Origin: Lachnospiraceae bacterium
Lineage (GTDB): Bacteria; Bacillota; Clostridia; Lachnospirales; Lachnospiraceae
NCBI GenBank assembly: GCA_017624835.1
Contig: JAGAMG010000046.1
Location: forward strand, 45,152-109,151
Length of the DNA stretch: 64,000 bases
Reading direction: 5' to 3'
The position numbers and the translations under genes are program-made. The notes beneath the pieces were generated by a model. It had not been told where the DNA came from, did no database searches, and saw only the letters and a list, made by a program, of their open reading frames with translations. Below, one piece after another: positions 4,366-8,885 of the stretch (position 1 is its first letter; each line of letters begins with the position of its first letter).

Positions 4366-5259
4366 ATGACAGGAAATCTGGAATATTTTAAGGTGTTTTA
4401 TTATACGGCAAAATGCGGCAGTCTTACCAAGGCTGCCGGAGAGCTTGCGATTTCCCAACCGGCGGTCAGTCAGGCATTAAAGCAATTGGAGAGAAGTTTG
4501 GATGTGGAGCTTTTTTACAGAGCTTCAAAGGGGGTACGTCTGACTGCTGAGGGAGAGCTTTTGTTTTCCTATGTGGAAAAGGGGTATGAGCAGATTGAGT
4601 TGGGTGTGCAGAAGGTACGCCAGATGCAGAATATGGAATTGGGTGAGATAAGAATCGGTGCCAGTGATATGACTCTGCAATTTTATTTACTTCCTTTTTT
4701 GGAAAAATTCCACGAGCAGTATCCTGAGATAAAAATTGTTGTTACCAATGCACCCACTCCTCAGACCCTGGAAACCCTTCGGGCAGGAAGAATTGATTTT
4801 TGTATTGTCAGTTCACCCTTTGGTGAGATAGGTGATTTGGAGGTATTACCGGTTCGGGAAATTGAGGATGTTTTTGTGGCGGGAAGAAGATTTACTTCCT
4901 ATAAGAATAAGACATTGGATTTTCAGGAATTGGAAAATTTGCCGTTGATATGTCTGGAAAAAAACACCAGCACCAGAAAATACATGGATGAGTTTATGGC
5001 AAAAAACAATGTGCGGATTCAACCGGAATTTGAACTGGCTACCAGTGATATGATTGTACAGTTTGTAAGAAGAAATCTGGGGGTTGGCTGTGTGGTAAAG
5101 GATTTTGCCAAGGATTATGTGGAGTCCGGCTTGCTGTTTGAACTGAGATTTAATAAAATCATACCTAAGCGTCAGTTTTGTGTGGTGAGAAATACCAAAA
5201 TCCCTATGAATACGGCAGCAAAAAAGCTTTTGCAGATTATGGAGCTGGAAAACAAATGA
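4366..5259 (+). CDS. LysR-family transcriptional regulator
   Basis: HTH SLTKAAGELAISQPAVSQALKQLE, LFYRASKGVRLT, GEIRIGAS; start ATG 4366 (or TTG 4354). Confidence 0.93.
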   Translation: MTGNLEYFKVFYYTAKCGSLTKAAGELAISQPAVSQALKQLERSLDVELFYRASKGVRLTAEGELLFSYVEKGYEQIELGVQKVRQMQNMELGEIRIGASDMTLQFYLLPFLEKFHEQYPEIKIVVTNAPTPQTLETLRAGRIDFCIVSSPFGEIGDLEVLPVREIEDVFVAGRRFTSYKNKTLDFQELENLPLICLEKNTSTRKYMDEFMAKNNVRIQPEFELATSDMIVQFVRRNLGVGCVVKDFAKDYVESGLLFELRFNKIIPKRQFCVVRNTKIPMNTAAKKLLQIMELENK

Positions 5260-7393: not shown

Positions 7394-7642
7394 CTAATCT
7401 TCATCACCATGAGTCATTTTCTGATACAACCAGGTATAAATCCAAATCAAAAAAGGAATGGCAAAGGAGGAAGCCAAGCATAAAGCAAAGAGCTTCCCGG
7501 AGGCAGATTTATCCACAAAAGCCACCACCAAGGTTACCACATACATCAACACCAAAAGCACCACCCCAACAATTGCCACAATTTGCTTGGAGGACATTTT
7601 CTTTTTGGGGGAATTATTATTAGTAGTCATTTTATCATTCAT
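7394..7642 (-). CDS. Small two-TM membrane protein, hypothetical
   Basis: Two hydrophobic helices after a basic N-terminus; RBS-like AAAGGA upstream. Confidence 0.75.
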   Translation of the reverse strand: MNDKMTTNNNSPKKKMSSKQIVAIVGVVLLVLMYVVTLVVAFVDKSASGKLFALCLASSFAIPFLIWIYTWLYQKMTHGDED

Positions 7643-7807
7643 GAGGAGTTATCCTTTCTTAAAATATATTCGCATTTATTCATGAAAAAAGCTGTCTGGC
7701 AATATTCTACCACAATTACAAACATTTTGTAAAACCCTACAACATATTACTCAAGTTCAATTATTTTTTCAGTGTGTTTTTGCTAATTATTATCAATTTT
7801 TGAAATG

Positions 7808-8073
7808 TGGGCGAGGGAATATGTAGGCGGGGTGGGAGGTGGGGGGGGATGGGGAGAACCTTTCGAATCAGGAGAGCGTTTTCTTATCGGTGGATGAACC
7901 GATTCAGGGGGAAACGCACAGGACGTGCGTTTCAGGAATTACGGCGCATGGATGCGCCTTAATTCCGACCCGCAGCTTACGAAAAACTTTCCCCCACCGA
8001 TTAGAAAACATCGACTGAGGAGTAGGTTCTCCCCATACCGCCCCGCCTCCCACCCCTTCACATCCCCCACCCT
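7808..8073. repeat. Long nested imperfect palindrome (structured intergenic element)
   Basis: GGGGTGGGAGG (7829-7839)/CCTCCCACCCC (8046-8056); ATGGGGAGAACCT (7849-7861)/AGGTTCTCCCCAT (8024-8036); 7878-7893/7994-8009; two inner hairpins. Confidence 0.8.
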
Positions 8074-8077
8074 CTTA

Positions 8078-8187
8078 CAAAAACAAAAACCCCCGGAAAC
8101 GCGTCCCACGCATTCCCGGAGGCTTTTAAGGGGAGGATTAAGTATTATTTTTATCCTTGGTAGTATCAAAGGAGGGGGTTCCAATGA
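8078..8187 (-). ncRNA. Candidate sporulation (sigma-G/F) C-rich small RNA
   Basis: Minus-strand promoter GTATAA-N16-CATACTA (8222-8194), C-rich motifs CCCCCTCC and TCCTCCCC, and a terminator hairpin (8086-8127) with T-tract; no RBS or short ORF inside. Confidence 0.55.
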
Positions 8188-8275
8188 TAGTAGTAGTATG
8201 TCACAGGAAAAAAGATTTATACACTTCATTCTAAAATTTTTAAAAATATTTTGACTGTTTTTAAGGAATTTTTAG

Positions 8276-8304
8276 TTGTGTAAAAAGACAATCTGTTATA
8301 TACT
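8276..8304 (+). promoter_or_regulatory. Sigma-A promoter of the SEC-C gene
   Basis: TTGTGT-N17-TATACT. Confidence 0.55.
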
Positions 8305-8381
8305 ATAGCTTGTCAGAGAAATATTCTGAGAGCGTAAGACGCTAATATACAAAAAGCATAGTTAATAAGGATGGTATTATT

Positions 8382-8885
8382 ATGGCATTATTAGAACAGT
8401 GGAGAGAGATAGCATATAATGAGAACACCAGCAGAGAAAAGCTGCAGCAGCTTTGGGGTGCATACTTCATGGAAGAGAAGGATATCTATGCAAAGCTTTT
8501 AAAGAATCCTGATGAAGTGGTAAAGGGTACCGTTAAGGAACTGGCTGACAAATATGAAGTTTCTCTTATGACCATGACCGGTTTCTTGGATGGTATCAAT
8601 GATAGCTTGGTAGAGGCTAATCCTATTGAAGAAATGGAAGAGGATACCGTAGTAAATCTTGGTTTTGACAAGGCACTTCTTTACAAGAATATGGTAGCTG
8701 CAGAGGCAGATTGGCTTTACAATCTGGAAGAGTGGAATGATATCTTTGATGAAGATACCAAGAAGGCTCTTTATAAAGAACAGAAGTCTTCTACCACAAT
8801 TGTTAAGGAAGCAAAGATTTATCCCAATGATCCTTGCCCTTGTGGAAGCGGTAAAAAATATAAAAAATGTTGTGGTAAGAAATAA
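8382..8885 (+). CDS. SEC-C metal-binding domain protein
   Basis: C-terminal [17 protein letters not shown]. Confidence 0.92.

What the first reader, a model, noticed from the sequence alone, without database searches (positions are those of the whole stretch)
8078..8222. Candidate forespore (sigma-G/F) small RNA with two anti-Shine-Dalgarno C-rich motifs
Seen on the minus strand: GTATAA-N16-CATACTA, then ~110 nt with GAACCCCCUCCUUUG and UAAUCCUCCCCUU, closed by a strong hairpin and U-tract. Known: sigma-G promoters read GnATA-N17/18-CATAcTA; C-rich loops in Firmicute sRNAs such as RsaE/RoxS pair with GGAGG; CsfG is a forespore sRNA with pyrimidine-rich motifs. Inference: an unannotated sporulation sRNA that blocks ribosome binding sites.
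Basis: partly seen in the sequence, partly recalled or inferred. Interest (0 to 1): 0.68.

Follow-up and report, generated by a model that had tools for sequence, protein, structure and literature searches.

The report
Spore-linked small RNA of Lachnospiraceae
This gene-free stretch encodes a roughly 108-base non-coding RNA with a promoter of the type used inside developing spores and cytosine-rich motifs; it is conserved in over a quarter of sampled genera of the gut family Lachnospiraceae, belongs to no catalogued RNA family, and its expression and targets are untested.

Summary
On the minus strand there is TGTATAA-N16-CATACTA, a 5' hairpin with a C-rich loop, a single-stranded stretch ending in UCCUCCCCUU, and a strong terminator.

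It is a real, conserved gene. Homologues occur in 18 of 36 same-genus genomes. Its 16-nt core occurs in 109 of 401 Lachnospiraceae genera, against 5 control hits. Outside the family, 1 of 195 other Clostridia matched, by chance.

Of 93 homologous loci, 88 keep a G(T/A)ATA-N17/18-(GG..)CATAcTA promoter. A matrix built from the other genomes' promoters ranks this promoter first in the whole genome. Next come a SpoIIQ-like M23 protein gene and a GerA germination gene.

All 109 carrier genomes have SpoIVA or alpha/beta SASP genes. Only 5 of 139 SpoIVA-negative genomes carry the core.

It is not CsfG. Rfam RF00516, the reverse strand of CsfG, gives no hit. Clostridial CsfG has a different core and sits beside rsmD. 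This RNA sits beside a SEC-C gene in 52 of 93 loci.

Blocking of ribosome-binding sites is inferred only. Target prediction did not beat its control, and no RNA data cover the locus.

An earlier scan note reports a similar forespore C-rich sRNA family in Cellulosilyticaceae; I did not test any link.

The parts
8217..8223 (-). -35 element TGTATAA (G(T/A)ATA core)
   Evidence: In the 87 promoter instances from other genomes, T81 G87 T67/A18 A87 T87 A87 A68. The spacer to the -10 is 17 nt in 71 and 18 nt in 17 of the 88 loci with a promoter.
8194..8200 (-). -10 element CATACTA
   Evidence: Family consensus is gGGtCATAcTAt, with A/A/T invariant or nearly so. It is identical to the -10 in front of the genome's SASP gene and sigG-like gene.
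8079..8188 (-). Predicted transcript of about 108 nt. The 5' end is inferred 6-8 nt after the -10; the 3' end is in the U-tract.
   Evidence: Inferred from promoter and terminator. No RNA data.
8164..8189 (-). 5' hairpin SL1 with apical loop ACCCCC (8179-8174). The C-rich motif CCCCCUCCUUU runs from the loop into the 3' arm.
   Evidence: MFE fold. 92.6% of cells are paired in 19 genus-level homologues. All 55 C-runs in the 5' modules of homologues lie in predicted apical loops. Stems vary across 39 distinct versions: 84.6% standard pairs against 56.9% when partner arms are permuted.
8128..8161 (-). Conserved single-stranded core ACCAAGGAUAAAAAUAAUACUUAAUCCUCCCCUU. The second C-rich motif UCCUCCCC is at 8137-8130.
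   Evidence: Predicted mostly unpaired; the small hairpin predicted there is not conserved. It is the most conserved part across genera. The 16/17-nt AAUACUUA(A)UCCUCCCC occurs in 109 of 401 Lachnospiraceae genera.
8079..8123 (-). Rho-independent terminator: G+C-rich hairpin 8123-8090, then UUUUUGUUUUU
   Evidence: Every homologue has a terminator at this place with a different sequence.
8382..8885 (+). Neighbouring gene, not part of the RNA: a 167-aa SEC-C-motif protein, divergently transcribed
   Evidence: Pfam SEC-C and NCBIfam NF004088 at 225.7 bits. A homologue lies next to the RNA gene in 52 of 93 loci: 41 upstream and divergent, 11 downstream on the same strand. It has its own sigma-A-like promoter.

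Best explanation
Window 8188-8079 (minus strand) is a stand-alone small non-coding RNA gene. It belongs to a previously uncatalogued family spread through the Lachnospiraceae. It is most likely transcribed only in the developing forespore, by RNA polymerase carrying sigma-F and/or sigma-G. The promoter combines the G-rich stretch upstream of the -10 (a sigma-F trait) with CATAcTA (a sigma-G trait). The RNA displays two pyrimidine-rich motifs. One is CCCCCUCCUUU, in and after the loop of a 5' hairpin; eight of its bases equal the 16S anti-Shine-Dalgarno CCUCCUUU (the 16S 3'-end sequence is recalled from memory, not read from this genome). The other is UCCUCCCC, at the end of a 35-nt unstructured core just before the terminator. 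The most likely mode of action is pairing of these motifs with purine-rich ribosome-binding sites of mRNAs, lowering their translation or stability in the forespore, as RoxS/RsaE and FsrA do and as is proposed for CsfG. Shown here: the gene anatomy, its conservation, its promoter class by sequence, and its restriction to genomes with sporulation genes. Inferred: forespore transcription. Inferred without direct support: the anti-Shine-Dalgarno mechanism and any target.
For: Anatomy and fold. Conservation: 18 of 36 same-genus genomes. The alignment shows an invariant promoter, motifs and core, with variable terminators. At least 120 matches across public genomes, nearly all in records named as Lachnospiraceae genera or unclassified Clostridiales/Bacillota bins. 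109 of 401 genera carry the exact core, against 5 reversed-pattern control hits. Promoter: 88 of 93 loci have G(T/A)ATA-N17/18-CATAcTA, with a fixed 7-9 nt from the -10 to the core in the short forms. With a matrix built without this genome, this promoter is the best of all sites in G000 (23.5). Next are a membrane M23 peptidase whose best NCBIfam match is SpoIIQ (23.3) and a GerA-family germination protein (18.5). The sigG-like gene has GTATA-N18-CATACTA and the SASP gene has CATACTA. In C. difficile, sigma-F promoters keep a G upstream of the -10 and sigma-G promoters an A downstream (PMC3789822); this family has both. Phyletic link: 104 of 109 carriers have SpoIVA, against 158 of 292 non-carriers (odds ratio 17.6). 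The five exceptions all have alpha/beta SASP genes. C-rich loop module. Stand-alone: it has its own terminator, and the nearby genes that match protein families lie on the other strand.
Against: There is no expression evidence. Target prediction was uninformative: the energy distribution equalled the reversed-sequence control. No extended complement occurs above control frequency in G000 or in five cultured carriers. 28 of 88 homologues lack the hairpin with the first C-rich motif, so that motif is dispensable for the family. The extreme conservation of AAUACUUA next to the C-run is not explained by generic Shine-Dalgarno pairing; it could be a protein-binding site or a site for one specific unknown partner. 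Assigning a sigma factor from sequence alone can fail. Phyletic counts are not phylogenetically independent.
Confidence: 0.6

Rival explanations
1. It is a highly diverged orthologue of CsfG, the sigma-F/sigma-G forespore sRNA of Bacillus and some Clostridia, and so a member of a known family.
For: It has the same promoter class, similar size, CU-rich unpaired motifs, a terminator and restriction to spore formers. CsfG as modelled by RF00516 was not found in the 41 relatives or 3 other Lachnospiraceae searched, so the two look taxonomically complementary. My model R2 gives weak hits of 12.5-19 bits at all six clostridial CsfG loci.
Against: RF00516 gives no hit at the locus even at E <= 10, while the B. 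subtilis control is found. Clostridial CsfG has a different conserved core (UUCCCCAUAGAGCUCUUCCUUCAAUUUCUCCUCUCCC) and lies divergent to rsmD-coaD, between ylbG and ylbH (rsmD) as in B. subtilis. In G000 the rsmD upstream region holds no such RNA. This RNA is linked to a SEC-C gene instead. The R2 hits cover the promoter part of the model, so they reflect a shared sigma factor and not RNA homology.
Confidence: 0.12
2. It is a protein-binding or decoy RNA. The invariant 35-nt core, or the mimic of the 16S 3' end, titrates an RNA-binding protein (Hfq, a KH-domain protein such as KhpB, or a ribosome-associated factor) and does not pair with mRNAs.
For: The core is conserved far beyond what generic Shine-Dalgarno pairing needs. 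No complementary target stands out. CsfG co-purifies with Hfq in B. subtilis (PMC3574147).
Against: No protein partner was tested or is indicated by gene neighbourhood. The only conserved neighbour is a SEC-C protein of unknown function with its own sigma-A-like promoter. Among Firmicutes C-rich sRNAs, those with known targets, RoxS and FsrA, act by pairing at or near ribosome-binding sites (PMC4409812 and PMC4152353).
Confidence: 0.15
3. It is not forespore-specific. It is a housekeeping or stress sRNA, or a leftover leader or terminator, whose promoter only resembles sporulation promoters.
For: No RNA data. Sigma assignments rest on sequence. In B. subtilis, CsfG has also been suggested to respond to oxidative stress (PMC4409812).
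Against: No sigma-70-like site was found at the conserved promoter position. The promoter motif, spacing and distance to the RNA are conserved in 88 of 93 loci. The matrix picks out sporulation genes in the same genome. The core is almost absent from SpoIVA-negative genomes, at 5 of 139, and those five have SASP genes.
Confidence: 0.08
4. It encodes a small protein: the 96-aa ORF at 8229-7939 on the minus strand.
For: An open frame spans the region.
Against: The frame would start upstream of the -35 element and run through the terminator. Homologues differ by 1-nt indels in the C-run and by unrelated terminators and insertions. No conserved frame exists.
Confidence: 0.01

Closest known systems
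CsfG sRNA (B. subtilis; Marchais et al. 2011; held in Rfam in reverse orientation as RF00516 'ylbH leader')
   Same: A stand-alone RNA of roughly 100 nt with a forespore-type (sigma-F/sigma-G) promoter, CU-rich motifs in loops and inter-helical stretches, an intrinsic terminator, and occurrence only in endospore formers. Targets are unknown for both.
   Different: There is no detectable sequence or model similarity. The conserved core differs. The genomic site differs: CsfG lies beside rsmD/ylbH in Bacillus and in Clostridia, this RNA beside a SEC-C gene. The architecture is modular, with the 5' hairpin optional.
RoxS/RsaE (RF01820) and FsrA, the C-rich-region sRNAs of Firmicutes
   Same: Unpaired C-runs in hairpin loops and linkers that can pair with GGAGG-type ribosome-binding sites, plus a terminator hairpin.
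   Different: No Rfam match. The regulation differs: those respond to NO/redox or iron, this one has a sporulation-type promoter. It is restricted to Lachnospiraceae.
Forespore C-rich sRNA family of Cellulosilyticaceae noted earlier in this scan (e1-5273780)
   Same: As described in that note: about 100 nt, a forespore-type promoter, an invariant C-rich loop, no Rfam family, and the order Lachnospirales.
   Different: It is a different bacterial family. I could not compare the sequences. The one weak non-Lachnospiraceae hit of my model in the order (third hit) lacks the core.

Membership tests
CsfG (Rfam RF00516, reverse strand) | Match to the covariance model at or above the gathering score of 50 bits | tested here: not met
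   No RF00516 hit in the window at gathering or at E <= 10 over 7600-8450 on both strands. None over the cut-off in 41 relatives, while the B. subtilis control is found.
CsfG (Rfam RF00516, reverse strand) | Conserved CU-rich core shared by Bacillus and clostridial copies | tested here: not met
   Clostridial copies (35.8-37.5 bits, all below the 50-bit gathering score) share UUCCCCAUAGAGCUCUUCCUUCAAUUUCUCCUCUCCC. This family has ACNAAAGA..AAUACUUAUCCUCCCC.
CsfG (Rfam RF00516, reverse strand) | Location in the ylbG-ylbH (rsmD) intergenic region | tested here: not met
   B. subtilis location from PMC3574147. The clostridial copy lies divergent to rsmD-coaD. The region upstream of rsmD in G000 lacks it. 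This RNA lies beside a SEC-C gene.
CsfG (Rfam RF00516, reverse strand) | Promoter of sigma-F/sigma-G type | tested here: met
   By sequence only. Clostridial CsfG copies have the same type, for example GTATA-N17-CAATAATA.
CsfG (Rfam RF00516, reverse strand) | Forespore-specific transcription | not testable with these tools
   The only RNA runs found are metatranscriptome contigs with nothing over the locus.
C-rich anti-Shine-Dalgarno sRNAs of Firmicutes (a functional class, not a sequence family) | Runs of at least 4 C in hairpin loops or single-stranded stretches | tested here: met
   for this copy. 55 of 55 C-runs of the 5' modules lie in predicted apical loops. The second motif lies in a stretch with no conserved pairing.
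C-rich anti-Shine-Dalgarno sRNAs of Firmicutes (a functional class, not a sequence family) | Pairing with ribosome-binding sites of defined target mRNAs | tested here: inconclusive
   CCUCC is complementary to GGAGG by inspection. But predicted energies to 3164 start regions equal a reversed control: 44 against 39 sites at or below -20 kcal/mol. No conserved target was found.
RsaE/RoxS (RF01820) | Match to the Rfam model | tested here: not met
   Not among the matches at E <= 10.

The most novel reading that the evidence does not exclude
Lachnospiraceae lost CsfG and evolved, at another locus, an unrelated forespore RNA. Its invariant 35-nt 5' core is a dedicated binding site for one conserved partner (a protein or a single key mRNA) that controls translation shutdown or its release during spore dormancy and germination. 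The optional anti-Shine-Dalgarno-mimicking hairpins are add-on modules. The conserved linkage to the SEC-C-motif protein gene would then reflect a functional pair.
Probability: 0.15. Interest if true: 0.75.

Novelty: new member of a known kind. Interest (0 to 1): 0.55.

Why it matters
Lachnospiraceae are among the most abundant bacteria of the human and animal gut, and spore formation is thought to be how many of them pass between hosts. Almost nothing is known about RNA-level control of their sporulation. This family gives a defined, widely conserved forespore-type RNA. It occurs in at least 109 of 401 sampled genera and is present in cultured strains such as Hungatella effluvii DSM 24995, [Clostridium] aerotolerans DSM 5434, Anaeromicropila populeti 743A and Waltera acetigignens, so it can be tested directly. 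It also shows that the 'CsfG niche', a sigma-F/G-driven C-rich sRNA, is filled by an unrelated sequence in a lineage where CsfG was not found among the genomes searched. That makes the still unknown function of such RNAs approachable by comparison. The family is missing from Rfam, and the clostridial CsfG copies seen here score below the RF00516 threshold.

Tried and rejected
1. Expression. One run search found only DNA holders plus four metatranscriptome runs with small shares. Laid on 7750-8550, their contigs cover only the SEC-C gene and part of the spacer and promoter region (8209-8370), none of the RNA body. This is no evidence either way.

2. Perfect or near-perfect complements of the core. 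In G000 there were only two sites with 2 mismatches, both inside coding regions with no promoter or terminator, which is about the chance number. In five cultured carriers, counts equalled the reversed-pattern control.

3. Genome-wide duplex energies to 3164 putative start regions were indistinguishable from a reversed-sequence control.

4. spoIIAB as a target. In A. populeti the spoIIAB ribosome-binding site is a perfect 12-nt complement of the core. There is no extended pairing in G000, where it ranks 2810 of 3164, nor in Hungatella, C. aerotolerans or Waltera, and only SD-type pairing in Cuneatibacter. Rejected as a conserved target.

5. A forespore promoter in front of the SEC-C gene. Comparison of homologues shows a sigma-A-like TTGCAA-N17-TATACT promoter instead.

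6. Weak RF00516 hits in relatives (up to 28.8 bits) are CU-rich stretches without RNA-gene features.

7. The one class-level match outside Lachnospiraceae (G583) has no promoter or terminator and is taken as chance.

8. The order-level search with model R2 found few hits. Only 27 first-look candidates per genome were scored, and the model includes the genus-specific hairpin, so that search undercounts.

9. MAFFT alignment of the hairpin windows misplaced the gaps, so pairs were counted in a script instead. Those windows were defined from predicted folds, which biases them towards pairing.

10. The original CsfG paper (PMC3218505) is not held. CsfG features were taken from PMC3574147, PMC4409812 and PMC8583004, and from the Rfam model.

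Full report
**Observation.** TGTATAA lies at 8223-8217, followed by 16 nt, then CATACTA at 8200-8194. GAACCCCCUCCUUUG is at 8181-8167 and UAAUCCUCCCCUU at 8140-8128. A G+C-rich hairpin at 8123-8090 is followed by UUUUUGUUUUU. The terminator scan finds this hairpin (20 pairs counted, 9 G-C) and finds no sigma-70-type promoter at the conserved promoter position. The 117-nt stretch folds at -42.3 kcal/mol (z = -4.2). The first C-run sits in the apical loop of a 5' hairpin and the second in an unpaired stretch. The nearby genes that match protein families are on the plus strand. They include a 167-aa SEC-C-motif protein at 8382-8885, transcribed divergently. The element is therefore a stand-alone unit and not a leader.

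**Known RNA families.** Rfam 15 gives one match in the whole window, a TwoAYGGAY RNA at 7861-8025 on the plus strand, next to the candidate but not overlapping it. At E <= 10 over 7600-8450, nothing meaningful covers the candidate. The best match is the L10 leader at 25 bits, against a threshold of 44, and it aligns mainly over the terminator and A/U-rich stretches. CsfG is held in Rfam in reverse as the 'ylbH leader' RF00516. PMC3574147 shows that the ylbH motif is transcribed from the opposite strand as CsfG, between ylbG and ylbH. RF00516 did not match here. It also passed its cut-off in none of 41 relatives, while the B. subtilis control was found. The weak hits in relatives are CU-rich stretches without RNA-gene features. 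Twelve homologous loci from other genera gave no Rfam match over the RNA either.

**Conservation within the genus.** BLASTN of the 166-nt region found significant homologues in 18 of 36 genomes of the same genus. The aligned part runs from the promoter to the second C-rich motif. The terminators are all present but unrelated in sequence. A covariance model aligned 19 copies. The 5' hairpin is 92.6% paired, but it is mostly conserved in sequence, with only two pairs changed on both sides.

**Conservation across public genomes.** Nearly all the named records are Lachnospiraceae genera, among them Acetatifactor, Hungatella, Lacrimispora, Anaerocolumna, Waltera, Blautia, Fusicatenibacter and Marvinbryantia. 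The rest are unclassified Clostridiales or Bacillota bins. The exact 16/17-nt core AAUACUUA(A)UCCUCCCC occurs in 109 of 401 Lachnospiraceae genomes sampled at about one per genus. It is almost always single-copy. The reversed-pattern control gave five hits in all. In a class-wide sample, only one of 195 non-Lachnospiraceae Clostridia matched, and that site has neither promoter nor terminator.

**Family anatomy.** In 93 homologous loci the common unit has three parts. The first is a promoter. The second is a roughly 35-nt unstructured core, ACNAAAGAnAA-(4-10 nt)-AAUACUUAUCCUCCCC, usually followed by UUUU. The third is a terminator. Among the 88 loci with a promoter, 28 are 'short forms' in which the core starts 7-9 nt after the -10. 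The other 60 carry one or two extra 5' hairpins. Every one of the 55 runs of four or more C in those 5' modules lies in a predicted apical loop. The stems differ between genera, for example GGA/UCC, CAAAG/CUUUG and UCAAA/UUUGA. Over 39 distinct versions, 84.6% of arm positions form standard pairs, against 56.9 +/- 2.6% when arms are permuted. A caveat applies: the windows were defined from predicted folds. The window's copy is a long form with one such hairpin. Eight bases of its first motif, CCUCCUUU, equal the anti-Shine-Dalgarno end of 16S rRNA; the 16S 3'-end sequence is recalled from memory and was not read from this genome.

**Promoter class.** 88 of 93 loci have G(T/A)ATA, a 17- or 18-nt spacer, and a -10 of consensus gGGtCATAcTAt. 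From memory, the B. subtilis consensus is GGnnAnAHTR for sigma-F and CATnHTA for sigma-G; this matches both. For C. difficile, PMC3789822 states that the two forespore consensus sequences are very alike. They differ by a G conserved upstream of the -10 (sigma-F) and an A conserved downstream (sigma-G). This family has both, as that paper reports for spoVT.

I tested the promoter class in the window's own genome. A position matrix built only from the other genomes' promoters was scanned over all 2.9 Mb. The top site is this RNA's promoter, at 23.5. The next sites with a downstream gene are as follows.
- A membrane-anchored M23 peptidase of 304 aa, whose best NCBIfam match is SpoIIQ, far below its cut-off (score 23.3).
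- A GerA-family spore germination protein (score 18.5).
- A 48-aa hydrophilic protein (score 17.7).

The genome's sigG-like gene is preceded by GTATA-N18-CATACTA, and its only alpha/beta SASP gene by CATACTA. From general knowledge of B. subtilis and C. difficile, these are forespore genes.

**Link to sporulation.** The same 401 genomes were searched for SpoIVA. By comparing the two lists, 104 of 109 RNA carriers have SpoIVA, against 158 of 292 non-carriers (odds ratio 17.6). The genomes are about one per genus, but they are still not independent. The five carriers without a SpoIVA match all carry alpha/beta SASP genes. The core was therefore seen only in genomes with hallmark sporulation genes.

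**Relation to CsfG.** A class-wide search with RF00516 found no match over the cut-off. It did find six sub-threshold matches (35.8-37.5 bits) in three genera. These are convincing CsfG genes. They have a forespore-type promoter, a shared core UUCCCCAUAGAGCUCUUCCUUCAAUUUCUCCUCUCCC and a terminator. The copy I inspected lies divergent to rsmD-coaD, and CsfG lies between ylbG and ylbH (rsmD) in B. subtilis. The Lachnospiraceae RNA shares the kind of promoter and the CU-rich character, but not the core sequence or the location. In G000 the spacer upstream of rsmD contains a tandem 17-nt repeat and no such RNA. The RNA described here lies next to a SEC-C (NF004088-family) gene in 52 of 93 loci. 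My model gives only 12.5-19 bits at the CsfG loci, over the promoter part. I therefore treat it as a separate family that works like CsfG, and not as a member of it.

**Mechanism.** The C-runs are complementary to GGAGG. By analogy with RoxS and FsrA (PMC4409812 and PMC4152353), the likeliest action is pairing with ribosome-binding sites in the forespore. I could not support this beyond complementarity.
- Duplex energies to 3164 start regions are the same as for a reversed control.
- Extended complements do not exceed control counts in six genomes.
- One attractive hit was a perfect 12-nt match at the spoIIAB ribosome-binding site of Anaeromicropila populeti. It is not conserved in five other genomes.

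The very strong conservation of AAUACUUA next to the C-run, and of ACNAAAGA, is not explained by generic Shine-Dalgarno pairing. This leaves room for a specific partner, RNA or protein.

**Expression.** The single run search returned DNA holders from animal gut metagenomes and four metatranscriptomes with small shares. Their contigs cover the SEC-C gene and not the RNA. This says nothing either way.

**Prior work.** Full-text searches found no description of a forespore sRNA in Lachnospiraceae, and no Rfam family fits. Earlier notes of this scan describe canonical CsfG copies beside rsmD in other genomes. This agrees with what I saw. One note (e1-5273780) describes a similar new forespore C-rich sRNA family in Cellulosilyticaceae, which I did not compare.

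**Verdict.** This is a real, conserved, uncatalogued small RNA gene family of Lachnospiraceae. It has a forespore-type promoter and C-rich motifs. It is a new family of a known kind. Expression, targets and phenotype remain to be shown.

Noticed in passing
window 7861-8025 (+): TwoAYGGAY RNA (RF01731, 76 bits) directly downstream of the sRNA terminator, flanked by G-rich (8071-8030) and C-rich arms. The genome holds 16 copies over the cut-off. This is the 'nested palindrome' of another first-stage note (e1-5450509).
   Followed up: partly
window about 8352-8311 (-): A second, weaker match to the forespore-promoter matrix (score 13.5, TTGTATATT-N17-CAGAATAT), about 130 nt upstream of the main promoter and in the same orientation. 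It could be chance or a second start.
   Followed up: no
L074 (Hungatella effluvii DSM 24995), cores at 1000-1029 and 4565-4594: Two short-form copies of the sRNA gene lie 3.5 kb apart on one contig. Two copies were also seen in C. aerotolerans (2 kb apart; the second copy's core differs by one base), and in G375 (0.4 kb apart) and G279 (1.4 kb apart).
   Followed up: no
L175:1501-1512 (Anaeromicropila populeti, G188:C26:155133): The ribosome-binding site of spoIIAB (anti-sigma-F) is a perfect 12-nt complement (GGAGGAUAAGUA) of the sRNA core in this species. It is not conserved in five other carriers.
   Followed up: yes
L163-L167 (class Clostridia, three genera): Genuine clostridial CsfG genes (forespore promoter, conserved core, terminator) score only 35.8-37.5 bits, below the RF00516 gathering score of 50. 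The inspected copy (L163) lies divergent to rsmD-coaD, with an alpha/beta SASP gene on the other side. The Rfam model misses these copies.
   Followed up: partly
L168:1405-1475 (G000:C47, upstream of rsmD): Four tandem copies of a 17-nt unit (GTTCCGGGAATCAGAAC) in the spacer before rsmD.
   Followed up: no
L049:1865-2022 (-) (Waltera acetigignens): A Clostridiales-1 RNA (RF01699, 118 bits) lies immediately upstream of the sRNA homologue.
   Followed up: no
G000:C29:17753-17899 (+): A 48-aa very hydrophilic ORF with no family match sits behind one of the best forespore-type promoter matches in the genome (score 17.7). It is a candidate small spore protein.
   Followed up: no
window 8382-8885 (+): The SEC-C-motif protein (NF004088/PRK05590 'hypothetical protein') is the conserved neighbour of the sRNA gene across genera, in either divergent or tandem arrangement. 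It has its own sigma-A-like promoter. Its function is unknown.
   Followed up: partly
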